From Thermoplasmata archaeon (GTDB lineage Archaea; Thermoplasmatota; Thermoplasmata; UBA10834): a DNA stretch of 64,000 nucleotides. Location of the stretch: positions 13,476-77,475 of the forward strand of contig JAJYIS010000001.1 of assembly GCA_021789945.1 (NCBI GenBank), given 5' to 3'. Numbering within the stretch: position 1 is the first letter of the stretch; each line of letters begins with the position of its first letter. The notes beneath the pieces are model-generated. The model ran no database searches, was not told the DNA's origin, and was given only the letters and a program-made list of their open reading frames with translations. Of the stretch, positions 50,432 through 63,938 are shown piece after piece. A program made the translations under genes and the position numbers.

Positions 50432-50503
50432 GGGCCGGTAGATCAGCGGCAGATCGCCCGCTTGGCATGCGGGAGGTCGCGAGTTCAAATCTCGCCCGGT
50501 CCA
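50432..50503 (+). tRNA. tRNA-Ala(GGC), no intron, CCA not encoded; probable island integration site
   Basis: GGGCCGG/CCGGTCC acceptor with G3-U70, CCCGC-TTGGCAT-GCGGG, GCGAG-TTCAAAT-CTCGC. Confidence 0.95.
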
Positions 50504-50506
50504 CAC

Positions 50507-51538
50507 TCACGCATAGCCAGACAAATATTTTTCCGTTTCAATTAAATCGTTTTTGCCCGAATTGATTTTTCGAGCTTTTTCAGAGGGATTAACCGAGCCC
50601 CAAGCCCGGTCTATCTCCTCCCGCACCATGGCGTCCGATTTCCGGCAGTAGTAGGTTTCCGTGGTTTTAGTCGACGAGTGCCCCATGCTTTTCGACACTG
50701 CATCAATCGTTGCCCCTCGATCGAGAAGAAGCTGCCCGTAGGTCCGTCTCAGGCTCCTGATGTCGAACTTCACGCCTGACAGTCGCTCCACCTGCCGCTT
50801 GAGCGTGCCTATGCCCTGAGCCGTGTAGAAGTCCATTCTCCCTCTGGGAGAAATGCTGGGGATGAGCGGAACGACATCCTCGCGAGCACCGTGCTCATAC
50901 AGCATCACTGCCCTGGCAGTCATGAAGCGGACCACATGCTCTCTTGCTGGCTCTGGTATGTAAACTACCCTCTTCTCACCCCAGCTCGCCTCGCCCTTCG
51001 GGTGGCGAACCCTGATGGTCCAATTCTGCATGTCTAAATCTTCCAAGTGAGCGAGCCTAAGCTCACTCATCCGGAGGCCACAGTAGCCATAGACGGCCAT
51101 CAGGAAACATGCCACACGGCCCCTCCACCCAGGGATTACGCCCGCGGATGCCATTATCTTGCGGAAGTCATTCTCCGACAATGAGGGCAGCCTCCTGACG
51201 CGCTGCATGGGTATGGCCTGCTTGTTCTGCTCCTGGAGGTTGGCAATTACGGGGTTCCCGCACCACTCGAGGAAGACCTTGAGCTGACCCATCTGCTTGC
51301 TGACTGTGTTGACACTCAAGCCCCTCTCTCTCATTTGCCTCAGCAGCTCCGTCACCTCTAGGACGCCTATCTTCGTCGGGTCGTCTGTCCGGACCTTCTT
51401 CTCGTTCTTCAGCCGACGCAAATCCAAGCCGAGCCTCCTCAGCTTCCTGAGCGTTTCCGCGACGGTCGAGGGGGAGTAGAACCCCTCGGTCTCCTTCGCG
51501 TAGCGCGCTAGAAGCATCAGGTAGGGGTATCTGCCCAT
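50507..51538 (-). CDS. Tyrosine recombinase/integrase
   Basis: GLRMSEL (R), HPKG (K), IRSLRRTYG (R) and MGHSSTKTTETYY (H, Y); ATG 51538 preferred over the ORF-track start. Confidence 0.92.
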   Translation of the reverse strand: MGRYPYLMLLARYAKETEGFYSPSTVAETLRKLRRLGLDLRRLKNEKKVRTDDPTKIGVLEVTELLRQMRERGLSVNTVSKQMGQLKVFLEWCGNPVIANLQEQNKQAIPMQRVRRLPSLSENDFRKIMASAGVIPGWRGRVACFLMAVYGYCGLRMSELRLAHLEDLDMQNWTIRVRHPKGEASWGEKRVVYIPEPAREHVVRFMTARAVMLYEHGAREDVVPLIPSISPRGRMDFYTAQGIGTLKRQVERLSGVKFDIRSLRRTYGQLLLDRGATIDAVSKSMGHSSTKTTETYYCRKSDAMVREEIDRAWGSVNPSEKARKINSGKNDLIETEKYLSGYA

Positions 51539-51810
51539 GGATTGACCCCTCCGCTTCCGGCCGGGCTTGCGCCGATGCTGGCCCACGGAGGCCTCGCCAC
51601 TGCCGCTTTCTGCCTGTTGGACGGCATTGGATCGGCGCTCCACGCCCTGTTCGGGCGCAGGCCTGGAAGAGCTTGCAGAAAGTTTAACCCTTGCCATTCA
51701 GACCAGCACCAGAATAGAGCAGTTTGGCAGGATCTGCGATGGAGGGAGGAAATGCGAGAATTGGAATGCTGGCACGGTAACCGGTCTGTTTGCGTTTCCA
51801 GTGAATCGAT

Positions 51811-52117: not shown

Positions 52118-52309
52118 TCACTCGTTCTGGTCCTCGACCTCGGAGTCGTCTTCCTCCTCTTCGCCCTCATCTTCGCCGTCGGGGAAGCTCTCGATGTACT
52201 GCAACACGGCGTGGAGTACCAATTCGCGAACGGTGATGCCCATTGCCTTGGCGGTTTCCTTCAGTTGCTCAACAATCTCGCCTTCAAATTCTACCGACAC
52301 ACTACCCAT
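52118..52309 (-). CDS. CopG/ribbon-helix-helix-like small DNA-binding protein with an acidic tail
   Basis: SVSVEFEGEIVEQLKETAKAMGITVRELVLHAV beta-alpha-alpha pattern. Confidence 0.65.
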   Translation of the reverse strand: MGSVSVEFEGEIVEQLKETAKAMGITVRELVLHAVLQYIESFPDGEDEGEEEEDDSEVEDQNE

Positions 52310-52608
52310 GTTCTTCTCCTGGGCCGTAGCCCGCAGGAGGTTATCTCTGTCCGTTGGATATGTTGGAGGTGTGACGGTTTTTCCATGCCTTGCGCGGAAT
52401 TTGACCACGCTACGTCCTACGCAAAGGCAAGCAAGCTGGATGCCATGAGTTAATCCAAGATCATTGGTCGAGAATTGGATTAATTACGTAATATTGACCG
52501 AAAAGTGATTTCCGTTCTTCCTATTTCCTTTTCTACCTTTCTTCCCGTTTTCCCAGTCACCAGTGCTGACGCTATCGAAGTCTTCTTCCTTGCATCGATC
52601 CTTTCACA

Positions 52609-52968
52609 TCAAGCTGAGGATCGTTCTGCTGATGCCTCCTTGACCGATCCGCGGTACTGCCGCAGGTAGCAGTTCCAGCACAATCCCTTCGCTTTGACTG
52701 CAGCCTTTCCGCACCTAGTGCAGAGATGGCCAGGGCAGTACTTCCTTGGATGCTGCACTGGAGTTCCACATATCTGGCAACGATGCTTCTTCCTTTCCGC
52801 ATCGCGCACTCTCTTCTTGCGCTTGGATCGCTTTCGAATCACGTCCTGCATTTTCCAGAGGCATCGACGCGAGCAATAAGGTGAGTTCGCTCGTTCCTTC
52901 GGTTTATTGGCGCCGCAGATTATGCAGAACGGCCATAGGTCGCGACTCTTGCGTCTGTTGATTGCCAT
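52609..52968 (-). CDS. Basic multi-zinc-finger hypothetical protein
   Basis: CIIC..YCSRRC, CQIC..YC, CTRC..CWNC; Arg/Lys-rich. Confidence 0.6.
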   Translation of the reverse strand: MAINRRKSRDLWPFCIICGANKPKERANSPYCSRRCLWKMQDVIRKRSKRKKRVRDAERKKHRCQICGTPVQHPRKYCPGHLCTRCGKAAVKAKGLCWNCYLRQYRGSVKEASAERSSA

Positions 52969-53194
52969 ATCGAAGCACCTCCGACTTCTTTCTCGTGAGG
53001 GCCAAAAATGCCCTCTTCGCGCTAAAAGGATCAAACAGTTCGAATGGTTCTGTTTCAAAGATGCTCGAATCGTTTCTGAAGTTGCCGTGCAGGCTATTTG
53101 GAAGTACTCTGTCCGTGTAGATTAAACCTACGCTGGACGGGGGTATGTCTAGCCACATCGAAAGACAAGCGTAGCAGCTCTGGCCGAAGTCAGG

Positions 53195-53214
53195 TCTTTC
53201 CACGTGGAAAGATT
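53195..53214. repeat. Perfect 18-bp palindrome TCTTTCCACGTGGAAAGA containing a copy of the 51811 motif
   Basis: Read directly. Confidence 0.85.
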
Positions 53215-53364
53215 GCTCAATTCTCGATCACGATCATGAGAGCCGGAAATGGACATCGACGGCCACTCCGCGGCTTGCATGGCTCTGCGTTCATACCATC
53301 GCTCCGAAAGTAACTGTGGCGAGTTTTCTTTCTAATTGAACGGGATTAGTCAATGTTTAGCTCG

Positions 53365-53382
53365 AGCGAGTTCAAGGCTCGC
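53365..53382 (+). repeat. Direct repeat copy 1, AGCGAGTTCAAGGCTCGC (tRNA-Ala T-arm-like hairpin)
   Basis: Exact 18-nt match to 58867-58884; 15/17 match to tRNA-Ala 50479-50495. Confidence 0.85.
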
Positions 53383-53549
53383 CGGTCTCAACTTGGCATG
53401 GCGAAGAATGTCATTTCGACCTCGTCGAGGTCGAAGTGAGTTCATGGCATTTGTCCCTCTGATGGAGAATCAGGAGTAGATCGTGTGAGATGCCAGTGAA
53501 TATTGAAACGAAAGGAAAGAGGTTTCTCCCAGGAGATACTACTCGCTCA

Positions 53550-53834
53550 TCACCAGCAGGGACAGGATCCATAGCTACCATTGTATCCGCCGTTAGTGTA
53601 GTACATCGGGCAGTTCCAGGATCCGTAGCCGCCTGAGGTTGGGGTTCCATAACCGCCCATCATCCCACCGCCCATGTGGCTTCCGCCCATCATGCCGGAC
53701 CCTCCACCGTAGGCTCCACCGTAAGCCGTCGGTGTCGCGGAGCCTGCAGCCCCTAGACCGGAAGTCAAAGCGATTCCTGCAACTACAACCAAAGCCACTG
53801 CCGCGATGATTGCGAACGCAATTGATGTCTTCAT
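53550..53834 (-). CDS. Small exported/membrane Gly-Met-rich protein with C-terminal Cys motifs
   Basis: N-terminal hydrophobic helix; GMMGGSHMGGGMMGG, WNCPM and SCPCW; GGAGGTG SD. Confidence 0.72.
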   Translation of the reverse strand: MKTSIAFAIIAAVALVVVAGIALTSGLGAAGSATPTAYGGAYGGGSGMMGGSHMGGGMMGGYGTPTSGGYGSWNCPMYYTNGGYNGSYGSCPCW

Positions 53835-54002
53835 TCCTTGTTCACCTCCTTTGTTGGCCGGTTTGTCTAACCGGATTCCCGCTACTGCCATTTGGTTGAA
53901 GAGGCACTTAGACCTATCCTGAAAAGCACTGAAAGCGCTTTCATCTGGTGAAAACTAAGCTGAAAATGCCCATCCGTGCAGGATTGAGGAGTCTCTGTCC
54001 AT

Positions 54003-54410
54003 TCAAGATTCACCCCTGATCTTCCTCGCGCTAGTTCCGCTTGTTCTCACGGGGCACCACGGTTGCTGCTTTGCTCCCCGCGCGGATACCCATTCCAGAA
54101 GGGGGATGAGGCGTTCCCTTAGTTCGCGGCCGTCACGAGTGAGCGAATACTTGACGCTTGGAGGGGACGTAGGCAACACTTCCTTGCCCACGAGGCCAAG
54201 CTTCTCGAGCTTCTTCAGGGTATCGGAGAGGGTCTTTGGACTGATACCCTTTAGCTCCTCCCTGAGTTCGTTGAATCGCTTCACGCCCTCGTTACCAAGG
54301 ATCGCGACGACCAGCAATGACCACTTCTTGCCAACGACATCCATGAGGCCGAATAGAGGACAGAAACAGAACTGTTCCGCACACTCATTCGCTTCGGCCA
54401 AGTGTATCAA
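54003..54410 (-). CDS. HxlR-family winged-helix regulator
   Basis: CPL...VVGKKWSLLVV...RFNELREELKGISPKTLSDTLKKLE. Confidence 0.9.
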   Translation of the reverse strand: MIHLAEANECAEQFCFCPLFGLMDVVGKKWSLLVVAILGNEGVKRFNELREELKGISPKTLSDTLKKLEKLGLVGKEVLPTSPPSVKYSLTRDGRELRERLIPLLEWVSARGAKQQPWCPVRTSGTSARKIRGES

Positions 54411-54491
54411 GTATCGTGTATGAAACTGCCGATATTAATAGGTTCATCTCCAATACTTGGTTCAGAAAATGAACCGCCCGAAGGCCGGAAC

Positions 54492-56399
54492 ATGCCGGAA
54501 GATGAACGCTCTGAGAGCATCGAAGGGAAATGGTACTCCTACCCACCGTTGCGAAATGCAATGATATCCGGAATCTTGACCGGACTGACCTTCGGATTGC
54601 TGCTGTCGGGCCTCGCATCTCTCTCTCTTGGAGTCTACATCTACACAATTGCCATGATCATAGGAGGATATCATTGGGGCAGAGAGGGAATAGAGCGCCT
54701 TGTGGAAGAACACAAGATTGGCATCGACATATTGATGCTCGCGGCAGCGACTGGAGCTGTCATCCTCGGAGTCTGGGAAGAGGCGGCCTTTCTCGTCTTC
54801 CTGTTCGCTGCTGCCGAGGGCATCGAAGAATTCGCCTATGCAAAGACCAGGTCGTCTATCAGGGCACTGCTAGATCTTGCACCAAAGGAAGCTAGGATTC
54901 TGAGGAATGGTTCGGAGGAGATGATTCCGGCTAGTGGGCTGAAGATTGGTGACATCTTCCTCGTGAGAGCAAGCGAAAGTATTCCGACAGATGGTGTTAT
55001 CCTCCGCGGGACATCGAGCGTGAATGAAGCTCCTGTGACAGGAGAGTCGAATCCTGTTGCGAAAGAACCGGGCACGAAGGTCTTTGCAGCGACGATCAAT
55101 CTCGACGGATTTCTCGAGGTCAGGGCGACCGCTTCCTTTCTCGACAACACCCTCTCAAAGATCATTCACATGGTCGAGGAGGCACAGGAGAGGAAGGGCA
55201 AGGTGCAGATGTTCATCGAACGGTTTGGAGATATCTACAGTCCCATCGTGCTCCTCTCCGCGATGCTTCTTGTGGTCATGCCACCCCTATTTGGTGATTC
55301 ATCCTCGATATGGGCCATGAAGGCGGTCGTCCTTCTTGTCGCTGCGGCGCCTTGCGCCCTAGTAATGTCTACGCCTGTCGCCATTGCAGCCGGCATTGGC
55401 AGAGCGGGAAAGAAGGGGGTTCTCATCAAGGGAGGCGTTCACCTTGAGTCCTTGGGCAAGATCAGAGTTGTGGCTTTCGACAAGACTGGCACTTTGACGA
55501 GAGGCGAGCCTGCAGTCACTGATGTTGTTCCATTTGAAGGAGACGAGTCCAGGTTGCTGGATTTGGCGTGCAGTGTCGAGAGGTGTTCAGAGCATCCGAT
55601 AGCCAAAGCGATAATGAAAAGGGCGTCCACCTCAAATGCGACTAAATCCCAAGGCTCCAATTTCTGTGCTGTTCCCGGCTTTGGCGAGAAGGCGAAGGTG
55701 GGCGATTGCACGGCGTACGTCGGGAAGCCCGAGCTCTTTGGAAAGGCGGCTATTGGTCCAGAGATCTGGGAGCGGATGAAAGCGCTTCAGAAGGAAGGCA
55801 AGACAACGGTGCTCATCGGGAAAGAGGACTCGGTCTATGGAATTGTTGCGTTGAGAGATGAGATCAGACCGGAGGCGAAGGCCGCACTCGCCAGACTCCG
55901 TGCCAGAGGCGTCAAGACCATTATGCTTACAGGAGACAACCCCGCCACCGCCGCGGCTGTTGCCAGGGATTTAGGAATCCAAGAATTCAGAGCCAACCTG
56001 AAGCCCGGAGACAAGATTGAAGCAATCAAAACCTTGAAAGAGAAGTATGGGGAGATCTTGATGGTGGGAGATGGTATCAATGACGCTCCTGCACTAGCAC
56101 AGGCCACGGTTGGAGTTGCGATGGGGACCATTGGCACCGATGCGGCCATTGAAGCGGCGGATGTCGCCCTAATGGCGGATGATCTTGGGATGATTCCCTT
56201 CGCGCTTGAATTAGGCGATAAGGCCAGAAGAATCAGCAGGCAGAACATCATCTTCTCGATCGCGTTGCTTTCGGTTATGATACCTTCTGCCCTGATTGGC
56301 TTGATCACAATAGCGGGGGCGGTAATATTGCACGAGACCTCAGAACTCATTGCAGTTGCCAATGGAATTCGGGTCGGAAATGATTCCAAGAATGTGTGA
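54492..56399 (+). CDS. Heavy-metal P1B-type ATPase (P1B-4-like: APC and HETS motifs, no N-terminal metal-binding domain)
   Basis: TGES, APCALVMSTP, DKTGT, SEHP, GDGIND and LHETSE motifs. Confidence 0.93.
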   Translation: MPEDERSESIEGKWYSYPPLRNAMISGILTGLTFGLLLSGLASLSLGVYIYTIAMIIGGYHWGREGIERLVEEHKIGIDILMLAAATGAVILGVWEEAAFLVFLFAAAEGIEEFAYAKTRSSIRALLDLAPKEARILRNGSEEMIPASGLKIGDIFLVRASESIPTDGVILRGTSSVNEAPVTGESNPVAKEPGTKVFAATINLDGFLEVRATASFLDNTLSKIIHMVEEAQERKGKVQMFIERFGDIYSPIVLLSAMLLVVMPPLFGDSSSIWAMKAVVLLVAAAPCALVMSTPVAIAAGIGRAGKKGVLIKGGVHLESLGKIRVVAFDKTGTLTRGEPAVTDVVPFEGDESRLLDLACSVERCSEHPIAKAIMKRASTSNATKSQGSNFCAVPGFGEKAKVGDCTAYVGKPELFGKAAIGPEIWERMKALQKEGKTTVLIGKEDSVYGIVALRDEIRPEAKAALARLRARGVKTIMLTGDNPATAAAVARDLGIQEFRANLKPGDKIEAIKTLKEKYGEILMVGDGINDAPALAQATVGVAMGTIGTDAAIEAADVALMADDLGMIPFALELGDKARRISRQNIIFSIALLSVMIPSALIGLITIAGAVILHETSELIAVANGIRVGNDSKNV

Positions 56400-56416
56400 G
56401 AAAGGTGACCCTAGTT

Positions 56417-57094
56417 TCAGGTTTCAATCTCGATGCGGACCTTGTTCGTCATTCCGTATCTCAATTTCGAAACAACCCCTTTCTCCTCAAGTCTGTCTAT
56501 GACCCTTGATACTTTGGCGTCCGACATCTTGGTTCTGGGCATCAAATCCTTCTGGAGAGCCTCACCACCAGAATCCATCAATGCTTTGAACATGGACCTT
56601 TCGTCCCCACTAAGAAGGCGAAGAGTGAGGTAGTAAGTCGATTGATGACCATTATCGGGCACGGGGGCAATCGATCCCTCGGCGGCAGCCCGAAGACCGG
56701 TTGATGCGGGTTGATCTGACACACTAGGAGTTGTTCTGGCCTGGGAGCTGGAGAGAATGTCTGGTTCTGACAGGACTCTCCCGGGCGCTCCGATTGCAGA
56801 AGTAGAGGGCGTTGAAGGAATAGTAGGAATTGCCGATTGAGGCAATGGCTCGTATTCTTGCCTGAAGAGGAGGTACATCAGTCCCGATGTGAACATGAAA
56901 GCGCCAATAATCGCGATTAGGAGGTTAGTGGCAGTATATGCAGTCATTGTGCTTGGCATCTGGTCCATCCACATGCCACTCTGAGTCGTAGTGCGTGTTG
57001 TCGTCAAGATAAACGAGATTACCATCAGGATGAGACCCGCAATCACAAGCCCTAATGGCAGAACGTTGTGTTCCCAGTTCCTTCTTTGGACCAT
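56417..57094 (-). CDS. Membrane-anchored HTH protein (COG2512-like)
   Basis: Two TM helices, a Pro/Ser/Thr linker and C-terminal LSGDER...QKDL...SDAKVSRVIDRLEEKG..YGMTNKV. Confidence 0.8.
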   Translation of the reverse strand: MVQRRNWEHNVLPLGLVIAGLILMVISFILTTTRTTTQSGMWMDQMPSTMTAYTATNLLIAIIGAFMFTSGLMYLLFRQEYEPLPQSAIPTIPSTPSTSAIGAPGRVLSEPDILSSSQARTTPSVSDQPASTGLRAAAEGSIAPVPDNGHQSTYYLTLRLLSGDERSMFKALMDSGGEALQKDLMPRTKMSDAKVSRVIDRLEEKGVVSKLRYGMTNKVRIEIET

Positions 57095-57529
57095 CTCCGC
57101 TTGCCTCCTTTCAACTCCCTGCCGTCCTATCCGACTTCGTGCAGAAGATGAGGATCATCTCTCCGGTATGAATATCAGACCACGCTGAGGGTGAGATGCC
57201 TTCCGCATACGATACCTAGGAGCCACAATATTAGTGCCTTTCCCTTTACGCTTTCTTAGTTGACCTCGATGTCGGGCTCAAGATCCATCAGATCTGGGGC
57301 CGGAACTGACTGGGTGGACGAAACAAAGAAGACTCTTCATTATCGTCAGAGCGTGAGGGAGCGCCCCAAACACTCTCAGTTCTTTCCTCCACCAAGGGTC
57401 TGCATGTGAAGTTCTCAGGAGATTGTTCCGAAGGACAACCGCACGAAGGGTGAGGGACCAGACAACGGAAGTATTCGAATCGTGACAAGAATTATGCGTG
57501 CTACCATGGATAACGGAAAGGAGGCAGAC

Positions 57530-58627
57530 ATGGCCACCGCAGTCAAGAAGGCTATCCAAGAGCTAGAGCAAGGAATGAAGCTGGGGAAATGCAAGAAATG
57601 TGGATGCATGCGGGATTTGCTGCAGACATTGGAGGCCTCTCTGCCAGGCCTGAACAGTGAAGAGGCGTCGCTGCTACTTGAAAGAGTCGGGTTTTGGATC
57701 GGTCAGCTCCAGGAGACACAGTATTCCTGTCTAGGCTGCAAACACTGTCACCCTTCCGTCGCCACGAATGCACTCAACAAGAAGTTCCCGGGGATTGATG
57801 CCGGGGACGTGTGCGGCTCGTTCGAGGTGGGCGAGGGGTGGCCTGCTGTGCCTGGCGAATATCATGTGCTATCTCGTGACTCAAGCTCCGCCGTTGCGAT
57901 TTCCACTCTAGCGAATGCTGAGCTGGCGGACGACCTGGCGGATCGATCGCCTAAGGGATTGGCAATCGTCGGGAAGACCGAAACGGAGAACATAGGCATC
58001 GACAAGGTGATCAAGAACATTGTGACCAATCCTTCGATTCGCTACCTGGTCCTATGCGGCGATGAACCGAAAGGACACATGAGCGGCCACACTCTGGAGA
58101 AGCTATGGGAGAACGGTGTTGATGACAGCATGAGGGTAATCGGCTCATCAGGCAAGAGACCGATCCTCAGGAACGTCTCCAGACATGAGATCGAGGCGTT
58201 TAGGAAGCAGGTGAAGGTCATCGACATGATCGGCGAAGAGAATCCGCAGGCCATCATTGCAGGAGTGAGCGATCTTGCAGGCAAGATCCTGCCCTCGGCC
58301 TCCCGCAATTGCGGCAAGTCTGTGAAGGTACCACCAGGTGCTGGAAAGGCTATCGAAGCGAAGAAACATAAGGACACCAACCTAGACAAAGCTGGATACT
58401 TCGTCATTATACCCCAGGGTGAAGGTCTCATTATGGTTGAGCACTACTCTTACGAGAACAAGTTGCTGAGAACCCTAAGAGGGACGAATGCTAGAGACAT
58501 CTACTTGACCGTCATCGAGAACGGATGGGTGACCGAGTTGAGCCATGCTGCGTATCTGGGAAAGGAACTGACTCTGGCTGAACTATCGATGAAGTCGGAT
58601 GTCAGATATGTTCAGGACAGGGCATGA
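57530..58627 (+). CDS. Cys-rich N-domain + MtrA-like cobamide-binding domain + DUF4346 fusion protein
   Basis: WPAVPGEY, AIVGKTETENIGIDKVIKNIVTNPSIRYLVLCGDEPKGHMSG and IEAFRKQV (MtrA-like); DKAGYFVI...SHAAYLGKEL (DUF4346); GGAGG SD before ATG 57530. Confidence 0.85.
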   Translation: MATAVKKAIQELEQGMKLGKCKKCGCMRDLLQTLEASLPGLNSEEASLLLERVGFWIGQLQETQYSCLGCKHCHPSVATNALNKKFPGIDAGDVCGSFEVGEGWPAVPGEYHVLSRDSSSAVAISTLANAELADDLADRSPKGLAIVGKTETENIGIDKVIKNIVTNPSIRYLVLCGDEPKGHMSGHTLEKLWENGVDDSMRVIGSSGKRPILRNVSRHEIEAFRKQVKVIDMIGEENPQAIIAGVSDLAGKILPSASRNCGKSVKVPPGAGKAIEAKKHKDTNLDKAGYFVIIPQGEGLIMVEHYSYENKLLRTLRGTNARDIYLTVIENGWVTELSHAAYLGKELTLAELSMKSDVRYVQDRA

Positions 58628-58866
58628 GGCTGGGGAATTGCGTTGAATGGAGAATGATAGCGTATCATGGACAGGTCATCACACATGGGTCCCAACAACG
58701 AGCTGGGCAGAGACCATGGCATGTGAGTCTACCCTTGGGCTTCATCACCAAGTAACGTGCGAGGGCCTGCAGAATCCGATTCTTGATAGAAGATGAGAGG
58801 GTGATCTGGAGACGATTCGCTGAGATTCCTCTTTGACTCGATCAAAAAGAACGAATGTCTGACTCT

Positions 58867-58884
58867 AGCGAGTTCAAGGCTCGC
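58867..58884 (+). repeat. Direct repeat copy 2, AGCGAGTTCAAGGCTCGC, within an extended hairpin TAGCGAG-TTCAAGG-CTCGCTA
   Basis: Exact match to 53365-53382. Confidence 0.85.
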
Positions 58885-58900: not shown

Positions 58901-59266
58901 CTAATCGCACTCAGCTAGCGCCTTTGTCCCTCGGGGAGTTATCGAATATATCATCCAGTTCTTAGTCCTCCTCGAAGAGACTAAACCAGCTCTCTCGAGA
59001 ACGTTGAGATGGTAAGACAGCTTGGAATCAGACAACTCTGCAATCCGCTTTAGTATGCAAGGGCAGAGATCCACTATGGAGAGTGCCCAGAGCAGTCTGA
59101 GCCGGACCGGGTCCGAGAGGGCCTGGTGTCGCCTAGCCATACTCTTCATCTTCGACTCCTTGGGAAGTCGCTCGATGAGCTTACTAAGCCCGCCTAGCTT
59201 GGAGAGTCGCACGGCAACCTTCTCCGGAAGCTCCAGTGGAGTTCCATCCTTTCCGCAACAGAGCAT
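58901..59266 (-). CDS. arsR: ArsR/SmtB-family repressor
   Basis: ALSDPVRLRLL, DLCPCIL and SKLSYHLNVLERAGLV motifs; N-terminal CC. Confidence 0.88.
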   Translation of the reverse strand: MLCCGKDGTPLELPEKVAVRLSKLGGLSKLIERLPKESKMKSMARRHQALSDPVRLRLLWALSIVDLCPCILKRIAELSDSKLSYHLNVLERAGLVSSRRTKNWMIYSITPRGTKALAECD

Positions 59267-59307
59267 TTCAAAATCTTTTGAAACCACAAACCCTTTATAG
59301 TCGGCTG

Positions 59308-59333
59308 AGTATTTCAAGTTTTGTAGAAATACT
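59308..59333. promoter_or_regulatory. Candidate ArsR operator AGTATTTC-N10-GAAATACT, just downstream of a TTTATAG box
   Basis: Perfect 8-bp inverted repeat between divergent arsR and the fdx-acr3 operon. Confidence 0.45.
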
Positions 59334-59425: not shown

Positions 59426-59713
59426 ATGAGCAAGCGTATGTACAACGGACTTCCCAGAGAAGAGATTCCATGGTTCCCCCGAGTCGATTCTAAGCGCTGC
59501 ACTGGCTGCGGTACCTGCATCAGGATCTGTCCGAACAAGGTCTACCGAGAAAGAGACGGCAAGCCCGAAGTCGCGGACCCCTTTGGCTGTGTGGTGGGTT
59601 GCTCTGGCTGTGTGCCCCAGTGCCCGGGACAGGCAATCTCATTTCCATCCCTGATCGAGCTCAGAGATGTCCTGAAATCTCTCGAGACAAAGTACGCCAA
59701 GAAGGCTAGGTGA
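59426..59713 (+). CDS. 2x[4Fe-4S] ferredoxin
   Basis: CTGCGTCIRICP and CVVGCSGCVPQCP motifs. Confidence 0.9.
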   Translation: MSKRMYNGLPREEIPWFPRVDSKRCTGCGTCIRICPNKVYRERDGKPEVADPFGCVVGCSGCVPQCPGQAISFPSLIELRDVLKSLETKYAKKAR

Positions 59714-59717
59714 TATC

Positions 59718-60851
59718 ATATCAACTTCAGGAGAAAGTTCCGGCGATGGCGCAGTCCCCGCGAAGAAACAGCTTTCCTTCCTGAATAAGTACCTGACAGT
59801 TTGGATCTTCCTGGCGATCTTCATAGGTGTCGGTCTGGGAGCAGCTGTCCCCGGCATTGCCGACGGCCTCAACAAATTGAGTATTGGAACCACATCCATT
59901 CCTATCGCCATTGGCCTAATTCTCATGATGTGGCCCCCGCTGGCCAGAGTGAAGTACGAAGAACTTAGGGAGATTCCCAAGCAGCCGGAGGCCAAGTTGA
60001 TGTTCGGCACATCGCTGGCCCTGAACTACATTGTTGGCCCCTTGCTTATGTTCGCATTGGCATGGATCTTCCTTCCTGACAACGTCTATTTCCGCATCGG
60101 CTTGATACTCGTCGGCGTGGCACGCTGCATCGCTATGGTCATTGTCTGGAACGGCCTCGCCGATGGGGATGCGGAATACGCGGCGATCCTAGTGGCACTC
60201 AACTCGGTCTTCCAGATTGCCCTATACTCCTTCTACGCCTACTTCCTAGTGGCCATCGCATCAAACTGGGTGTCCCCCGGCTCGGGCACGGAGATAAGAA
60301 TCGGAGTGTGGGAGGTCGCGCAGAGCGTCCTGATATATCTGGGCCTCCCGTTCGCGATGGGCATAGCGACGAGATATCTGCTGCTGCCAAGAAGAGGAGC
60401 CGATTGGTACAACAACAAGCTCATGCCAGTACTTGGTAGGGTTTCCCTCCTCGCGCTGCTGTTCACAATCGTCGTGATGTTCGCCTTCAAGGGCGAGTAC
60501 ATCCTCGACCGGCCGCTAGACGTCGTCAGGATCGCGATACCCCTGGTGTTCTACTTCGTCATAATGTTCTTCCTGTCATTCGGACTGTCGATCAAGCTCA
60601 AGTTTGACTATCCGCATGCGACGGCGCAGAGCTTCACCGCGGCCAGCAACAACTTCGAGCTAGCCATCGCGGTGGCCATAGGCGTGTTCGGCATCGGGTC
60701 GTTGGTAGCCTTCGCTGCCGTGATTGGACCTCTGGTGGAGGTGCCGGTCTTGATTAGCCTAGTGAACGTGGCTCTCTGGATTAGGAAGAGGTACTATGGC
60801 GCGGACGGGAGGCTTCTGTCTTCCCCAGCCGCTCCTGCCAGAGGCGAATAA
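59718..60851 (+). CDS. acr3: ACR3 arsenite/antimonite efflux transporter (start appears to be ATA)
   Basis: LSFLNKYLTVWIFLA, MMWPPLARV, ARCIAMV, SNNFELAIAVA and GPLVEVP motifs. Confidence 0.93.
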   Translation: MSTSGESSGDGAVPAKKQLSFLNKYLTVWIFLAIFIGVGLGAAVPGIADGLNKLSIGTTSIPIAIGLILMMWPPLARVKYEELREIPKQPEAKLMFGTSLALNYIVGPLLMFALAWIFLPDNVYFRIGLILVGVARCIAMVIVWNGLADGDAEYAAILVALNSVFQIALYSFYAYFLVAIASNWVSPGSGTEIRIGVWEVAQSVLIYLGLPFAMGIATRYLLLPRRGADWYNNKLMPVLGRVSLLALLFTIVVMFAFKGEYILDRPLDVVRIAIPLVFYFVIMFFLSFGLSIKLKFDYPHATAQSFTAASNNFELAIAVAIGVFGIGSLVAFAAVIGPLVEVPVLISLVNVALWIRKRYYGADGRLLSSPAAPARGE

Positions 60852-61021
60852 TGATCTGTGAGACCTGCCGCCTCCATCCCGACTGCGAGTTGGGGCCTCC
60901 GAAGGAGGGTGAGACTTGCCCCTACTTCCAGCCGAAGGAGACGCTCCAATTGACATTCACGGAAGAAGGATGGAAGATGGGGGAGTGAAAGAATCCGGAA
61001 TAAGAAACGAGTGTGAGAAAA

Positions 61022-61660
61022 ATGGAAAACGAGAAGCAGGTAAAGCTGCCAGATTGGACATGGGAGTTCCACGGCCACCGCTGCCCGTTCATGCCGATAG
61101 GGTACCGGATGGGGGCGATAGCCTTGCGGGAACTCGGGATCGAGAAAGTCAAAGACCACGGCGCGTTCGCGCTGCCGGAGATGGGCGTGGGCCATCCGCA
61201 GACGTGCATGATGGACGGGGTCATGTCTGCGACCGGATGCACCTACGGGAAGCTGATGATGGAGCGGCTGAACTACGGCAAGGTCGCGAGCATCGTACAT
61301 GCTCCCGGGAAAGGTGCGGTAAGGGTCTACCTCGAGTCCGACTTCCAGGACGAGCTGGGCAAGGAGGAGTTCTTCGCCTACAGGAAGCGAGGCGTCGAGC
61401 CATCGGACATACCTTCTGAGGTGACCGAGCGTGCGGTGAAAATCGTGCTCGAGACACCCGAGGACGACATGTTCAAAATCGAGAAGCTGCCGGACTTCAA
61501 GTTCTCCAGGCCGAAGGGTTCTTTCGCGAAGGTGAAGTGCTCGAAGTGCGGGGAGTACGTCTTTGAACGCTATGTCCGGACTGTTGAGGGCGAGCCCGTG
61601 TGCATACCCTGCTCTGGGTTCACAGAATCGAGACTTGATGCCCTAAAAGCTATACAGTGA
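61022..61660 (+). CDS. FmdE-family protein with C-terminal zinc finger
   Basis: FHGHRCP, CMMDGVMSATGCTYGK, CSKCGE...CIPC motifs. Confidence 0.88.
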   Translation: MENEKQVKLPDWTWEFHGHRCPFMPIGYRMGAIALRELGIEKVKDHGAFALPEMGVGHPQTCMMDGVMSATGCTYGKLMMERLNYGKVASIVHAPGKGAVRVYLESDFQDELGKEEFFAYRKRGVEPSDIPSEVTERAVKIVLETPEDDMFKIEKLPDFKFSRPKGSFAKVKCSKCGEYVFERYVRTVEGEPVCIPCSGFTESRLDALKAIQ

Positions 61661-61672
61661 GAGGAATCGAGA

Positions 61673-62446
61673 ATGGACCTCACGCTCCTGGCCGCCATCA
61701 TATCCGTCCTTCTGATATCCCTAGTGTTCTCGATGTTCGGCCAGGGGGGAGGATCTCTCTACACCCCCGTCCTCTTCCTCCTGGGGTATGCCACGCTTGT
61801 GTCGATCTCCACCTCCCTGGTCCTCAACCTGGTGACCGCGTTCTCGGCGACTCTGATCTACTACAGGAACAAGATGGTGGACCTGAAGCTCTCGCTGGCC
61901 TTCATTCCGGGGATATGCATAGGAGCACTCATAGGAGGAGCCTCCACGAAGTACGTGGACTCGACTCTCCTGATGTGGCTGTTCGTGGTGTTCCTAATCG
62001 GTGCCGGCGGCAGGATGGTGTACACCTACTGGGAGAAGACGAGGGAGAATGAATCATGTCCTCTGAAGTTAACGAATCCGATGTTCGCGCTGATTACGGT
62101 CTTCAGCTTCGGTGTCGGGATCATGTCCGGGCTCCTCGGAGTGGGGGGCGGGATAGTCATAGTGCCGTTCCTGATATTCCTGTGCAAGCATCCGACCAAG
62201 GGCGCTGCGGGCACTGCCGCCTTTGTAGTCATTTTCTCCTCCATATTTGGCGTGATAGGACATTCTGCCGTGGGACGCCTGGACACTGGGCTCATTCTCG
62301 CGACCGTGGTGGCGGTGTTCACCGGGGCGCAGATAGGCGCGCGCTACATGGTCAAAGCGAAATCGGATATGATCAAGGTCGGGTTCGGACTAATAATGTG
62401 GCTGTTCGCAGTCCAGCTCGTGCTGAAGCTTCTAGGATACTTGTGA
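61673..62446 (+). CDS. TauE/SafE (TSUP) family sulfite exporter
   Basis: FGQGGGSLYTP and SGLLGVGGGIVIVP repeats; 8 TM-like segments. Confidence 0.9.
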   Translation: MDLTLLAAIISVLLISLVFSMFGQGGGSLYTPVLFLLGYATLVSISTSLVLNLVTAFSATLIYYRNKMVDLKLSLAFIPGICIGALIGGASTKYVDSTLLMWLFVVFLIGAGGRMVYTYWEKTRENESCPLKLTNPMFALITVFSFGVGIMSGLLGVGGGIVIVPFLIFLCKHPTKGAAGTAAFVVIFSSIFGVIGHSAVGRLDTGLILATVVAVFTGAQIGARYMVKAKSDMIKVGFGLIMWLFAVQLVLKLLGYL

Positions 62447-62488
62447 AGGATGGATTGGGAGAAAATGGTGAAGAAGAGAGGTGATTGA

Positions 62489-62932
62489 GTGCCAGAAGAA
62501 AAACAGATGGAATGGAAAGCCGGAGAGAATACGCATGAGAATTTGATATACGCCTGCTTCGGAGGATTGTCAAACACTGGGATAACGGCTACGCTAGCAA
62601 GCATGGAAGCCGTCAAAGACCTTGGGTTGAGGAAAGTGGGAATCGGTTGCCTTGCAGGGCTTCCCATCGAAGTGGAGCCTGTCCTTGGCAAGACTAACGC
62701 GGCAAAGAAGATCATAACGGTTGACGGCTGCCCCTTCGAATGCAGCAAGAAGGTCGTCGAACGGGCCGGGTTCAAGATCGCGAGAAGCATTGTGCTTGTA
62801 AGAGACATCGGAATGAAGAAGAAGCCGTTTCATGAGGACATCGGAGGAGATTTGAAGGGCATGATGAACTACGTCTCCACAGAAGACGTCAGGAAGGCGA
62901 AGGAACTCATAATCCAGGCTATCAGAGAATAG
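62489..62932 (+). CDS. DGC-domain putative zinc-binding protein
   Basis: IYACFGGLSNTG, GCLAG and TVDGCPFECSK motifs. Confidence 0.85.
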   Translation: MPEEKQMEWKAGENTHENLIYACFGGLSNTGITATLASMEAVKDLGLRKVGIGCLAGLPIEVEPVLGKTNAAKKIITVDGCPFECSKKVVERAGFKIARSIVLVRDIGMKKKPFHEDIGGDLKGMMNYVSTEDVRKAKELIIQAIRE

Positions 62933-62975
62933 AAGAACCACGGAAATTCGCACACGAGAAAGGAAGGCGCACGCG

Positions 62976-63938
62976 ATGGCGAAACTCAACATAGATAGCT
63001 CCGAGTGTACGCAATGCGGCATATGCATTGATATCTGCCCAAACAACGCGCTCGAGCTCCGAGACGTCGGACCCGAGCTGATGCATCCCGAGCTGTGCAC
63101 GGAGTGCGGCGTGTGCGAAGACCAGTGCCCGTCGCGCTCAATCACCGTCCTCCGTCGCCAACAGTTGTCGATGCCCGGAGCGAAACCGACCGCAGACCTC
63201 CAATGGAATGCCGCATCAGAGCAGATGGTGTCGCTGCTCGGACTGGCGAAACCGCCTGTGGGGATATGCCTCGTGAAGAGCGCAAGCGATGTACCGCCTG
63301 GATTCGTGACGATGGACTTCCCCATCAGACACTGCGTCTCGATCCACATGGCATCGCTTGGAGCGGCCATCTTCGTCCCAGCGCAGCAGCATGCGTGCTC
63401 CGCCGGCAAGGCGGCTCTTGGAATCTCTGAGTTGCCCGACAAAGTCAAGTCCGGTAAGGTCCCTTACATGCACGGACTCGCATCAACCGAGCCAGCTGCC
63501 GCGCGCACCATGGAGGAGATACCAAAACTCCCCATAGGGACTTGTACAGGTACCGTGGTCGCACCTCTGGCCTGCTTCAAGCTTCCACCAGAGGTCGTGG
63601 TGCTGACCTGCTTGCCAAAGCAGGCAATGTGGGTTGCTAACTCGCTGCTATTCGAGACGGGGGGACCTAGGATAACGGCGAACTTCGCTGGAATGCAGGC
63701 ATCCTGCGGCGACGTTACCGCCCTTCCCATCCTTACAGGCAGTGTCAATTTCAGCCTTGGGTGCTACGGATGCCGCTCGGCAGGGAAGCTGAAGGACGAC
63801 GAGATGTATGTGGGAATCCCGAGGGCAAGAATAGAAGAGGTGGTCTCCGGTCTACAAGGCCTTCGGAGAGCGATGGGAAAGTTGGAGCGGACACAAAGAC
63901 CCGGAAACCCCATGGAAGCTGGGAACAGAGAGGAATGA
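62976..63938 (+). CDS. 2x[4Fe-4S] ferredoxin-DUF169 fusion protein
   Basis: CTQCGICIDICP and CTECGVCEDQCP; DUF169 motifs PPVGICL, ACSAG, QASCGD and SLGCYGCR. Confidence 0.85.
   Translation: MAKLNIDSSECTQCGICIDICPNNALELRDVGPELMHPELCTECGVCEDQCPSRSITVLRRQQLSMPGAKPTADLQWNAASEQMVSLLGLAKPPVGICLVKSASDVPPGFVTMDFPIRHCVSIHMASLGAAIFVPAQQHACSAGKAALGISELPDKVKSGKVPYMHGLASTEPAAARTMEEIPKLPIGTCTGTVVAPLACFKLPPEVVVLTCLPKQAMWVANSLLFETGGPRITANFAGMQASCGDVTALPILTGSVNFSLGCYGCRSAGKLKDDEMYVGIPRARIEEVVSGLQGLRRAMGKLERTQRPGNPMEAGNREE

What the first reader, a model, noticed from the sequence alone, without database searches (positions are those of the whole stretch)
57530..58627. Orphan MtrA-like corrinoid protein with a six-Cys N-domain and DUF4346, inside a metal/arsenic island
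Seen: a complete MtrA-type domain retaining the His of the cobalt-ligand motif (EPKGHMSG, cf. MtrA EVKGHITG), no membrane anchor, N-terminal CKKCGC...CLGCKHC and C-terminal DUF4346; no other mtr genes nearby. Neighbours are a Co/Fe-type pump, ArsR, a 2x[4Fe-4S] ferredoxin and Acr3. Established: mercury methylation uses a corrinoid protein plus ferredoxin (HgcAB, a different fold) that is often ArsR/ars-linked, and methylcobalamin can methylate As, Sb and Bi. Inference: an undescribed cobamide-dependent metal(loid) methylation/demethylation or cobalt/corrinoid-handling system.
Basis: partly seen in the sequence, partly recalled or inferred. Interest (0 to 1): 0.78.

Follow-up and report, generated by a model that had tools for sequence, protein, structure and literature searches.

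The report
Cysteine-rich B12 protein on metal island
This archaeon picked up, on a mobile island, a gene from a large unstudied family of vitamin-B12-type proteins with a six-cysteine head; the family sits beside toxic-metal and arsenic resistance genes in many microbes, which hints at an unknown B12-based way of handling such elements.

Summary
Window 57530-58627 (+) encodes a soluble 365-aa protein with three parts: a helical N-domain with six invariant Cys, an MtrA-type corrinoid domain, and DUF4346. The MtrA domain keeps every cobalamin contact named for solved MtrA. The genome has no other mtr gene, no MtrH and no McrA.

It is not a one-off. At least 1815 homologues share the architecture, mostly bacterial. 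NCBIfam already models it full length under the name "MtrA", but I found no paper on it.

In 98 non-redundant loci, metal-resistance, regulator or Cys-relay genes are about five-fold enriched within 2.5 kb. These include ArsR, P1B ATPases, CDF, Czc/Cus RND, Acr3, ArsC, ArsA/D and ArsM. No folate, thymidylate or MtrH context appears. Relatives are fused to a 4-TM "GCCGSP" domain, a periplasmic OB domain or a thioredoxin-like domain. One relative has TGA (probable Sec) at Cys67.

Here the gene lies in a 5.5-kb repeat-flanked cassette of a tRNA-Ala island that 60 relatives lack. ArsR, ferredoxin and Acr3 belong to the next module, and no ferredoxin recurs elsewhere, so the HgcAB analogy is weak.

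Best reading, at about 0.35: a cobamide protein passes a methyl group to or from a Cys-bound soft metal(loid). The function is untested.

The parts
57530..58627 (+). Complete gene for the 365-aa three-domain protein (six-Cys N-domain, MtrA-type corrinoid domain, DUF4346). A GTG at 57482 is an alternative start.
   Evidence: NCBIfam NF002128 matches residues 2-365 at 399 bits, below its cut-off of 568.
57530..57823 (+). N-terminal helical domain with six invariant Cys. CxxCxC sits at 57590-57607 and CxxCxxC at 57728-57748.
   Evidence: Invariant in alignments A1 and A3. AF2 pLDDT is 87 with no PDB fold match. The domain is found only in this architecture. One relative has TGA at the C67 position.
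57827..58285 (+). MtrA-type Rossmann corrinoid-binding domain. The His183 codon is at 58076-58078 and the Glu153 codon at 57986-57988.
   Evidence: Pfam E 1.5e-41. PDB 5LAA E 5e-33 with about 42% identity. Foldseek TM 0.83 to 5LAA. All contact residues listed in PMC4915002 are kept.
58382..58618 (+). DUF4346 (Pfam name PterinBD-DUF4346), a beta-beta-beta-alpha-alpha domain of unknown role.
   Evidence: Pfam E 2.8e-19. Invariant D286, GYF, EHY304-306, W333 and HAAYLGxEL. No PDB sequence or fold match.
53352..53382 (+). Left copy of a 31-nt direct repeat containing the tRNA T-arm-like core GCGAGTTCAAGGCTCGC. It is the left boundary of the 5.5-kb cassette.
   Evidence: The tRNA-Ala has GCGAGTTCAAATCTCGC at 50479-50495.
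58854..58884 (+). Right copy of the direct repeat (87% identical over 31 nt, core identical). It is the right boundary of the cassette and lies between the MtrA-like gene and arsR.
54402..56399 (+). P1B-type heavy-metal ATPase in the same cassette. It has no HMA domain and carries APC in place of CPC.
   Evidence: TIGR01525 582 bits, TIGR01512 501 bits. Metal specificity was not tested.
56417..57094 (-). Membrane-anchored winged-helix regulator (DUF7343/MarR-like), divergent from the MtrA-like gene. It is a candidate local regulator.
   Evidence: The regulatory link is an inference from the divergent arrangement.
54003..54410 (-). HxlR-family regulator in the cassette.
53550..53891 (-). Membrane-anchored Gly/Met-rich protein ending in CP...CPCW. 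It may bind metal and matches no family.
50432..50504 (+). tRNA-Ala(GGC), the integration site of the island.
50507..51697 (-). Tyrosine recombinase/integrase of the island.
   Evidence: GC drops from 0.62 to 0.52-0.58 from this point on.
58901..59317 (-). ArsR/SmtB regulator of the adjacent module. It is convergent with the MtrA-like gene and outside the cassette.
59426..60851 (+). Ferredoxin (59426-59713) and Acr3 (59877-60851), the first genes of the adjacent ars-type operon. They are not conserved partners of the family.

Best explanation
The gene encodes a soluble corrinoid protein that binds its cobamide base-off/His-on. It belongs to a widespread, uncharacterised family with three parts: a six-Cys N-domain, an MtrA-type domain and DUF4346. 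The family works in the handling of thiophilic metals and metalloids, not in methanogenic C1 transfer. In this archaeon the gene is horizontally acquired cargo of a tRNA-Ala integrative island.

Proposed mechanism. The paired Cys motifs (CxxCxC and CxxCxxC; Sec at one position in one relative) hold a soft metal(loid), for which As(III)-type S3 coordination is the model. They hold it next to the exposed upper face of the cobamide. A methyl group then passes between cobalt and the bound element. In one direction CH3-Co(III) methylates the element. In the other, Co(I) demethylates a methylated species.

In many relatives a Cys relay appears to feed this site. The relay consists of a periplasmic OB-fold protein, a 4-TM GCCGSP domain and a Cys-rich tail. 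This archaeal copy lacks those partners.

Shown: the architecture, conservation of the cobalamin contacts, the invariant Cys, the enrichment of metal genes nearby, the fusions, and the horizontal acquisition.

Inferred: cobamide loading, metal(loid) binding by the Cys site, methyl transfer, its direction, the methyl donor and the element.
For: Corrinoid binding:
- About 42% identity to solved MtrA.
- Tyr18, Thr53, Glu54, Asn55, Gly57, Val61, Asn64 and His84 of MtrA correspond to Y111, T152, E153, N154, G156, V160, N163 and H183. These are invariant or at least 90% conserved in 68 relatives.
- Foldseek TM 0.83 to 5LAA.
- All 24 carrier genomes tested have other B12-binding proteins, five of them in the host.

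Link to metals:
- Metal or relay ORFs make up 14.9% of ORFs within 2.5 kb and 2.9% beyond 5.5 kb (p 6e-6).
- 18 of 29 loci with at least 2.5 kb on both sides have such a gene.
- HTH_5 (ArsR) is the commonest Pfam family among 150 near neighbours.
- Example operons are arsD-arsA-arsC-X-nikR_C in the 60%-identical relative, czcCBA-DUF302-arsR-X-trx-dsbD_TM-YHS, X-acr3-arsC, and ArsM beside X.
- These contexts are spread across the whole family tree.

Cys site as a working site:
- Six invariant Cys.
- TGA at the Cys67 position in a Clostridium MAG.
- The N-domain occurs only in this architecture.
- Fusions to a GCCGSP 4-TM domain, a TM plus OB periplasmic domain, and a TM plus thioredoxin-like domain.

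Chemical precedent (established knowledge). Methyl-corrinoids transfer methyl to thiolates in Mtr, MetH and MtaA. Methylcobalamin methylates As, Se, Sb, Te, Bi and Hg abiotically and in methanoarchaeal extracts.
Against: - No biochemical datum exists for any member.
- No methyl-loading enzyme (MtrH, AcsE, MtaB-type or DHPS-like) recurs nearby.
- A class-I SAM methyltransferase is present in only 8 of 98 loci.
- The role of DUF4346 is unknown, and its 'pterin' label could not be tested.
- The six Cys could instead bind an Fe-S cluster, because CxxCxxC is ferredoxin-like (not significant).
- The contexts span As, Cu, Zn/Cd, Co and Ni systems, so no single element is implied.
- About a third of well-flanked loci show no metal gene, and one lineage simply sits by parAB.
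- Only 9 of 24 carrier genomes have CbiB, and the host has none, so the cobamide would have to be imported.
- This copy lacks the accessory Cys motifs and the relay partners of most relatives.
- An earlier agent's Hg-C reading for the same family is recorded as having fallen on a later check, with the reason not given.
Confidence: 0.35

Rival explanations
1. The protein is a redox enzyme, not a methyl carrier. The six Cys bind an Fe-S cluster, or act as redox thiols, and reduce the cobamide to Co(I). Co(I) then reduces a soft metal(loid), such as Hg(II), As(V), Se or Te oxyanions. Alternatively it drives a thiol-disulfide relay across the membrane towards periplasmic thioredoxin-like or OB-fold partners.
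For: - A CxxCxxC motif beside a corrinoid domain recalls corrinoid Fe-S proteins and reductive dehalogenases (established knowledge).
- There are weak PsaC-motif matches.
- Relatives are fused or adjacent to thioredoxin-like, DsbD_TM and 4-TM Cys domains.
- No methyl-loading enzyme is conserved nearby.
Against: - MtrA-type His-on corrinoid sites are known only from methyl transfer.
- Probable Sec at Cys67 is unusual for an Fe-S ligand.
- No electron-donor gene recurs nearby.
- The N-domain fold matches no Fe-S protein.
Confidence: 0.22
2. The protein is a non-catalytic metal(loid)-binding protein, acting as a chaperone, sink or sensor. Its Cys sites bind soft metals, and the MtrA fold serves as a scaffold or as a cobamide-dependent switch.
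For: - The family has a median of 13 Cys per protein, and this copy has 9.
- Most members carry a CxCxxC linker motif, the pattern of the As(III) site of R773 ArsR (recalled knowledge; motif seen).
- The family co-occurs with exporters of many different metals.
- Relatives are fused to a relay with a MerT-like motif.
Against: - Invariance of all cobalamin contacts across phyla argues that the cofactor matters.
- DUF4346 is equally conserved.
- Sequestration proteins rarely keep such a fixed three-domain architecture.
Confidence: 0.18
3. The protein is an ordinary C1 methyl carrier, for example one feeding a core methionine synthase or another corrinoid-dependent methyltransferase. In that case its metal-gene neighbours reflect carriage on mobile islands, not function.
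For: - The host has MtaC-like corrinoid proteins. A first-reader note, unchecked here, reports a non-Pyl MttB homologue in the window.
- Price 2021 (PMC7857596) predicts that MtrA donates methyl groups to MesA.
- Several loci show no metal gene.
Against: - No methionine synthase, MtrH, folate or methylamine methyltransferase gene recurs nearby.
- Enrichment of metal genes is family-wide.
- Fusions to Cys-relay membrane and periplasmic domains make no sense for a cytoplasmic C1 carrier.
- The gene is absent from all 60 relatives of the host.
Confidence: 0.1
4. This particular copy is an inactive passenger. It was acquired without the partners of its family and is not used by the archaeon.
For: - The genome has no GCCGSP membrane protein or OB partner.
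- The host has no CbiB.
- The copy lacks the accessory Cys motifs of most relatives.
- The gene lies in a mosaic island.
Against: - The ORF is intact, with a GGAGG before the ATG.
- All invariant residues of the family are kept.
- Its 72%-identical sister has the same reduced Cys set and also sits by a P-type ATPase, which suggests a maintained subtype.
Confidence: 0.15

Closest known systems
MtrA and the cytoplasmic MtrA homologues of methanogens (PDB 5LAA, 5L8X, 8Q3V; Wagner, Ermler and Shima 2016, PMC4915002)
   Same: - The same Rossmann-type fold (TM 0.83) and about 42% identity.
- The cobalt-ligand His, its Glu partner and all the tail and ring contacts are kept.
- It is therefore most likely the same base-off/His-on cobamide site.
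   Different: - No membrane anchor, and no MtrB-H partners anywhere in the genome.
- An added six-Cys N-domain and a C-terminal DUF4346.
- The meander motif GAIPYxEN is changed to GKRPILRN.
- Metal-resistance context, mostly bacterial distribution, and carriage on mobile elements.
HgcAB mercury methylase (corrinoid protein HgcA plus ferredoxin HgcB)
   Same: - A corrinoid protein encoded near ArsR-type regulators and ars genes. The preprint 10.1101/2022.10.17.512643 reports ArsR-like control of hgcAB.
- It is the only known corrinoid enzyme that acts on a metal.
   Different: - An unrelated corrinoid fold with His-on ligation, whereas HgcA uses Cys-on ligation in a CFeSP-like domain.
- No transmembrane domain in this copy.
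- No conserved ferredoxin partner.
- The neighbouring ferredoxin scores 45 bits on the HgcB model (cut-off 99) and lies in another module.
mer operon relay (MerP, then MerT, then NmerA/MerA)
   Same: Relatives combine an exported Cys protein, a membrane domain with a vicinal CC pair in the motif CCxxP followed by a cytoplasmic Cys pair, and a cytoplasmic Cys-rich enzyme. This is the same logic as handing Hg(II) inward.
   Different: - Homology is not established. hhalign against MerT gives probability 14.5%, and there are no Pfam or NCBIfam hits.
- The cytoplasmic enzyme is a corrinoid protein, not a flavin disulfide reductase.
- The window's copy has none of these partners.
Corrinoid iron-sulfur protein (CFeSP, AcsCD) of the Wood-Ljungdahl pathway
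   Same: A Cys-cluster domain is fused to a corrinoid domain. The cluster may serve reductive reactivation of the cobalt.
   Different: - A different corrinoid fold and a different Cys motif.
- No acs/cdh genes nearby.
- A probable Sec substitution at one Cys.
ArsM (SAM-dependent As(III) methyltransferase)
   Same: - Proposed analogous chemistry on a Cys-bound metalloid.
- Occurs in the same ars neighbourhoods and lies next to the family in L107, L017 and L055.
   Different: No sequence or fold relation. ArsM uses SAM as its cofactor, whereas a cobamide is proposed here.

Membership tests
MtrA (Pfam PF04208) corrinoid-binding domain | Domain model match above the curated cut-off | tested here: met
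   142 bits against a cut-off of 25. PDB MtrA chains match at E about 1e-33. Foldseek TM 0.83.
MtrA (Pfam PF04208) corrinoid-binding domain | Cobalt-ligand His84, its H-bond partner Glu54, and the tail and ring contacts Tyr18, Thr53, Asn55, Gly57, Val61 and Asn64 | tested here: met
   H183, E153, Y111, T152, N154, G156, V160 and N163 are present. They are invariant or at least 90% conserved in the family.
MtrA (Pfam PF04208) corrinoid-binding domain | Actual cobamide binding | not testable with these tools
   This needs reconstitution with UV/Vis or EPR.
MtrA subunit of the MtrA-H methyl-H4MPT:CoM methyltransferase (TIGR01111 equivalog) | Score above the equivalog cut-off | tested here: not met
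   TIGR01111 gives 134 bits against a cut-off of 249. NF002126 gives 150 against 161.
MtrA subunit of the MtrA-H methyl-H4MPT:CoM methyltransferase (TIGR01111 equivalog) | C-terminal transmembrane anchor, and mtrEDCBFGH partners in an operon or elsewhere in the genome | tested here: not met
   No hydrophobic segment. No MtrH, no second MtrA and no McrA in the genome.
MtrA subunit of the MtrA-H methyl-H4MPT:CoM methyltransferase (TIGR01111 equivalog) | Meander motif GAIPF/Y-x-EN | tested here: not met
   The aligned segment reads GKRPILRN. Only G, P and N are kept.
NCBIfam NF002128 (PRK00964.1-6, named 'MtrA'), the full-length three-domain model | End-to-end match above the cut-off | tested here: inconclusive
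   Residues 2-365 match model positions 10-370 of 390 at 399 bits (E 2.5e-119), but the cut-off is 568. A bacterial long form also stays below it at 418 bits.
Six-Cys / MtrA-like / DUF4346 family (as defined here) | Invariant CxxCxC and CxxCxxC motifs, an MtrA domain with the His, and DUF4346, in that order | tested here: met
Six-Cys / MtrA-like / DUF4346 family (as defined here) | Metal-resistance or ArsR-type neighbourhood | tested here: met
   The window has a P1B ATPase in the same cassette and an ars module next door. For the family as a whole.
Six-Cys / MtrA-like / DUF4346 family (as defined here) | GCCGSP membrane domain and exported OB-fold Cys partner (present in about a fifth of loci) | tested here: not met
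   Neither is in the window or the genome.
HgcAB | HgcA CFeSP-like corrinoid domain with cap-helix Cys and a TM domain, plus an HgcB ferredoxin above its cut-off | tested here: not met
   The corrinoid fold is MtrA-type. The ferredoxin scores 44.8 bits against a cut-off of 99 on NF040864.
MerT-type mercuric transporter (for the fused GCCGSP domain of relatives) | Profile-level homology to MerT | tested here: inconclusive
   hhalign gives probability 14.5% and pairwise E 0.0019. It aligns the CC pair and the downstream Cys pair. There is no match to a divergent MerT and no Pfam or NCBIfam hit.
Pterin-binding function implied by the Pfam name PterinBD-DUF4346 | Similarity to a known pterin-binding fold, or a folate/pterin gene context | tested here: not met
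   No PDB sequence or fold match. No folate or pterin genes nearby. No paper mentions the domain. Binding itself cannot be tested here.

The most novel reading that the evidence does not exclude
The family is the missing oxygen-independent, cobamide-dependent enzyme that makes or breaks methyl-metalloid bonds. One example would be Co(I)-dependent demethylation of methylarsenicals such as MAs(III) and DMAs(III); the reverse methylation is also possible. The metalloid would be held on the Cys/Sec site of the N-domain. That would give a third biological route of metal(loid) methyl transfer beside ArsM and HgcAB. It would also offer a candidate for anaerobic demethylation of dimethylarsenate, whose mechanism is stated to be unclear (PMC10579292).
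Probability: 0.15. Interest if true: 0.9.

Novelty: new variant of a known kind. Interest (0 to 1): 0.62.

Why it matters
MtrA-type corrinoid sites are known only from the sodium-pumping methyltransferase of methanogens. This variant is soluble and cysteine-studded. It occurs in at least 1815 proteins across many bacterial phyla and some archaea. Annotation pipelines routinely mislabel it 'tetrahydromethanopterin S-methyltransferase subunit A', and it sits in metal and arsenic resistance islands.

If it acts on metal(loid)s, it would be a new class of B12 enzyme. It would also be a new determinant of arsenic or other metal speciation in anoxic soils and sediments, where the enzymes for anaerobic demethylation are unknown.

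Even on the conservative reading the result has uses:
- It corrects an annotation that falsely suggests methanogenesis genes in non-methanogens.
- It defines a tractable target for biochemistry: one soluble protein of about 40 kDa.

Tried and rejected
- HgcAB analogy (corrinoid protein plus ferredoxin). Rejected as a conserved pairing. No ferredoxin family recurs near homologues, the local ferredoxin is sub-threshold for HgcB, and it lies in another module.
- Folate or thymidylate context. Not seen for this six-Cys family.
- Fold searches. The full model matches only MtrA. The N-domain model has no match better than E 1.4. PDB sequence searches with DUF4346 and with the N-domain gave nothing significant.
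- Literature. No paper holds DUF4346, PterinBD, PF14251, TIGR00284 or MJ0107. None links 'tetrahydromethanopterin S-methyltransferase subunit A' with ArsR or metal resistance. Price 2021 and GapMind 2026 do not mention this family.
- Riboswitches. No cobalamin, NiCo, THF or SAM riboswitch lies near the gene in 20 loci or in the window.
- Operator palindrome in the 435-bp upstream region. None found.
- SECIS after the TGA in L017. A hairpin forms, but it is no more stable than shuffles (z 0.06), so Sec is probable but not shown.
- Cobamide synthesis as a correlate. Only 9 of 24 carrier genomes have CbiB, while all 24 have B12-binding proteins. This is uninformative, because 12 of the 14 control genomes do too.
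- Naming the host organism. Cluster look-ups gave no names.
- The 'acc/noacc' labels printed on the tree were position-sensitive and were not used.
Full report
**1. What is there**

Window 57530-58627 (+) is an intact ORF of 365 codons. A GGAGG lies 6 nt before its ATG, and a GTG at 57482 is an alternative start.

Pfam finds MtrA (PF04208, E 1.5e-41) followed by PterinBD-DUF4346 (PF14251, E 2.8e-19). The first ~98 residues match no Pfam or NCBIfam family. They carry CKKCGC (C21, C24, C26) and CLGCKHC (C67, C70, C73).

There is no hydrophobic segment; the highest 19-residue Kyte-Doolittle mean is 0.92.

The assembly is 2.0 Mb and about 88% complete. PF04208 and PF14251 each hit only this gene in it. 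MtrH and McrA give no hit.

**2. The corrinoid domain looks functional**

The domain aligns with solved MtrA proteins (5LAA, 5L8X, 8Q3V) at E about 1e-33 and about 42% identity. The AlphaFold model (pLDDT 80) superposes on 5LAA with TM 0.83.

Wagner et al. (PMC4915002) name these cobalamin contacts: His84 as the Co ligand, Glu54, Asn55, Thr53, Gly57, Val61, Asn64 and Tyr18. The aligned residues here are H183, E153, N154, T152, G156, V160, N163 and Y111. In an alignment of 68 full-length relatives they are invariant or at least 90% conserved.

Only the 'meander' motif GAIPYxEN, which is tied to energy coupling in the pump, has changed, to GKRPILRN.

The domain fails the equivalog cut-offs for true MtrA. 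TIGR01111 gives 134 bits against 249. It should not be called a subunit of the Mtr complex.

**3. It belongs to a large, unstudied family**

The word-indexed search returned at least 1815 proteins at E no higher than 1e-3. The best 120 all carry both Pfam domains. The close ones are 50-55% identical over the full length. The hits that carry names are bacterial: Acidobacteriota, Blastocatellia and unclassified bacteria.

Species-level genomes add Deltaproteobacteria, Anaerolineae, WOR-3, Omnitrophota, Aquificales, Clostridium, Saganbacteria and one Thermoplasmatales archaeon.

NCBIfam NF002128 is an 'equivalog' named MtrA. It matches residues 2-365 end to end at 399 bits, below its cut-off of 568. 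So the three-domain architecture is already modelled, but under a misleading name.

Full-text searches found no paper on DUF4346, on this architecture, or on any link between 'MtrA' annotations and ArsR or metal resistance. [quoted passage not shown]

**4.

I collected 25 loci from species genomes (two decayed copies were set aside), 80 from metagenomes and 9 by exact look-up. I called ORFs, removed near-identical loci and kept 98. I classified neighbours through BLAST clusters, my own HMMs and Pfam or NCBIfam on representatives.

Recurrent neighbours, by number of loci:
- ArsR/HTH_5: 16, often directly upstream and co-directional
- RND/MFP of the Czc/Cus type: 10
- P1B ATPases: 9
- CDF: 6
- Acr3: 3
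- LMW ArsC: 3
- MerR: 2
- Class-I SAM methyltransferases: 8. One is a true ArsM at 315 bits (cut-off 263), and two more are ArsM-like.
- ArsD-ArsA-ArsC, DsbD_TM, thioredoxin, YHS, NikR and LspA also occur.

Metal or relay ORFs make up 14.9% of ORFs within 2.5 kb and 2.9% beyond 5.5 kb (odds ratio 5.8, Fisher p 6e-6). The categories were defined from near neighbours, so the contrast is somewhat inflated.

Among 29 loci with at least 2.5 kb on both sides, 18 have such a gene.

A blind Pfam tally of 150 near-neighbour ORFs put HTH_5 first. It showed no folate, thymidylate, MtrH, DHPS or ferredoxin family.

One lineage (11 loci) simply sits upstream of parAB. Several loci show nothing metal-related. 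Metal contexts are scattered over the whole family tree.

**5. Fusions and partner genes**

An exhaustive HMMER search with the N-domain alone found 173 cluster representatives. All ten representatives I scanned are N-domain, MtrA and DUF4346 proteins or fragments of them. The six-Cys domain therefore appears specific to this architecture.

Variants add further parts:
- an N- or C-terminal domain of about 150 aa with four TM helices, carrying an invariant GCCGSP and a Cys-rich tail
- a TM helix plus an OB-fold domain, weakly CcmE-like
- a TM helix plus a thioredoxin-like domain

The first two also occur as separate adjacent genes in about a fifth of loci. The exported OB protein carries a conserved GCxDxC.

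This mirrors the logic of MerP, MerT and MerA. Homology to MerT is not established, however. hhalign gives 14.5% probability, although it does align the CC pair and the downstream Cys pair. Neither partner has a Pfam or NCBIfam model.

In a Clostridium MAG the codon for Cys67 is TGA in an otherwise open frame. This points to selenocysteine and so to a reactive rather than purely structural Cys. The downstream hairpin is not statistically distinctive.

**6. The local setting**

The GC fraction falls from 0.62 to 0.52-0.58 after tRNA-Ala(GGC) at 50432-50504. An integrase gene abuts the tRNA.

A 31-nt direct repeat at 53352-53382 and 58854-58884 has the core GCGAGTTCAAGGCTCGC. This mimics the tRNA T-arm GCGAGTTCAAATCTCGC. 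It brackets a 5.5-kb cassette that contains:
- a Gly/Met-rich Cys-tailed membrane protein
- an HxlR regulator
- a P1B ATPase with no HMA domain and an APC motif
- a membrane-anchored DUF7343 winged-helix regulator, divergent from the target
- the MtrA-like gene itself

ArsR (convergent), the ferredoxin and Acr3 lie beyond the right repeat, in an ars-type operon. That operon continues with FmdE-like, TauE, DGC and Fer4-DUF169 genes. The ferredoxin and Acr3 are therefore island-mates, not operon partners.

None of 60 relatives, including 18 of the same genus and 18 of the same family, has the gene. It is a recent horizontal acquisition.

The closest homologues:
- The 72%-identical one sits beside a P-type ATPase and a NikR. 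That ATPase is only 40% identical to the window's.
- The 60%-identical one lies in arsD-arsA-arsC-X-nikR_C.

The window protein and these two homologues lack the accessory Cys motifs found in 65-94% of the family. These are CxGxxC before the MtrA domain, the MIGCED Cys and the CxCxxC linker.

The host genome has no GCCGSP or OB partner and no CbiB. It does have five B12-binding-domain proteins, including MtaC-sized ones, so cobamide is presumably available by uptake.

**7. Mechanism**

Shown:
- a conserved His-on corrinoid pocket
- a family-specific six-Cys domain, whose two motifs the model places side by side (a bridge between residues 24 and 65)
- an invariant DUF4346
- metal-linked genomic context
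- fusions to Cys-relay parts

Inferred: what the cobalt does.

I commit to methyl transfer between the cobamide and a soft metal(loid) held by the Cys site, at about 0.35. My reasons are these:
- MtrA-type sites are known only as methyl carriers.
- The nucleophile-to-CH3-Co(III) chemistry that works for thiolates also works for As(III)-type centres.
- Arsenic genes are the commonest specific context of the nearest relatives.
- ArsM and other SAM methyltransferases recur nearby.

The direction of transfer, the element and the methyl donor are open.

Rivals:
- a Co(I)/Fe-S reductase or thiol-relay driver (0.22)
- a non-catalytic metal-binding protein (0.18)
- an ordinary C1 carrier whose neighbours are incidental (0.10)

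Separately from these, this copy could be an unused passenger (0.15).

Notes from earlier agents of this scan describe the same family in at least six other genomes, with similar readings. One Hg-specific bold reading is marked as having fallen on a later check, with no reason given. I therefore keep Hg-specific claims low and treat those notes as leads only.

**8. Comparison with known systems**

It works most like a cytoplasmic MtrA homologue, but it is not a member of the Mtr complex. It lacks the anchor and the partners, falls below the equivalog cut-offs and has a changed meander motif.

It is not HgcAB. The fold and the cobalt ligation differ, and there is no conserved ferredoxin.

The relay of its relatives resembles mer transport only by motif and topology.

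The 'pterin-binding' label on DUF4346 has no support that I could find. There is no fold or sequence match and no pterin context.

**9. Verdict**

The feature is real. The specific HgcAB-like pairing is not supported.

The family is catalogued but mislabelled and uncharacterised. I rate it a new variant of a known kind, with interest 0.62.

The boldest reading still allowed is an oxygen-independent cobamide enzyme that makes or breaks methyl-metalloid bonds. I put it at about 0.15. It would address the unclear mechanism of anaerobic methylarsenical demethylation (PMC10579292).

Noticed in passing
window 50432-58884: The island is mosaic. tRNA-Ala(GGC) abuts an integrase. Then come a 1.4-kb block bracketed by an exact 16-nt repeat (51810-51825 and 53199-53214) and a 5.5-kb cassette bracketed by T-arm-like repeats. 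This looks like serial integration at one tRNA.
   Followed up: partly
window 53550-53891 (-): A 113-aa membrane-anchored protein made largely of Gly, Met and Tyr runs (MMGG repeats), ending in CPMYY...CPCW. It has no Pfam or NCBIfam match. It could be an extracellular Cu/Ag-type metal binder.
   Followed up: partly
window 59426-63938: The acr3 operon is padded with Cys/Fe-S proteins: ferredoxin, FmdE plus a zinc ribbon, TauE, a DGC domain, Fer4-DUF169 and a CMD-like start at 63761. No ArsC or ArsM is in view.
   Followed up: no
L017:1150-1152: An in-frame TGA sits at the Cys67 position of the MtrA-like gene in a Clostridium MAG, and an ArsM-like gene lies downstream. This is probably a selenoprotein form that gene callers split in two.
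   Followed up: partly
L082:1512-2354, also L083-L085: A DUF5714 plus CMD protein lies next to the family. It matches NCBIfam 'metal-binding double selenoprotein MbdU' at 391 bits (cut-off 600). A separate stand-alone 137-aa DUF4346 protein lies at L082:2808-3221.
   Followed up: no
L124:2071-2289 (Salinibacter ruber plasmid pSR60): A MerT-MerP fusion protein is followed by a 'GDCCVxC domain-containing (seleno)protein' and an RND pump. I met this while fetching MerT as a yardstick.
   Followed up: no
L064, L072-L074, L078, L091, L094, L100, L104, L106, L114: In one lineage of the family the gene sits directly upstream of parA-parB, and several loci also have a CT398-like zinc-ribbon gene or a histidine kinase gene upstream. 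This is a conserved chromosomal position with no metal gene in view.
   Followed up: partly
G000 contigs C96, C39, C42, C25: The host has four B12-binding-domain ORFs of 219-272 aa, the size of MtaC, but no McrA hit. The archaeon may be a non-methanogenic methylotroph, or the assembly may be incomplete.
   Followed up: no
L025 (Gracilibacter sp. BRH_c7a): A decayed copy of the family, with several in-frame stops in the N-domain region.
   Followed up: no
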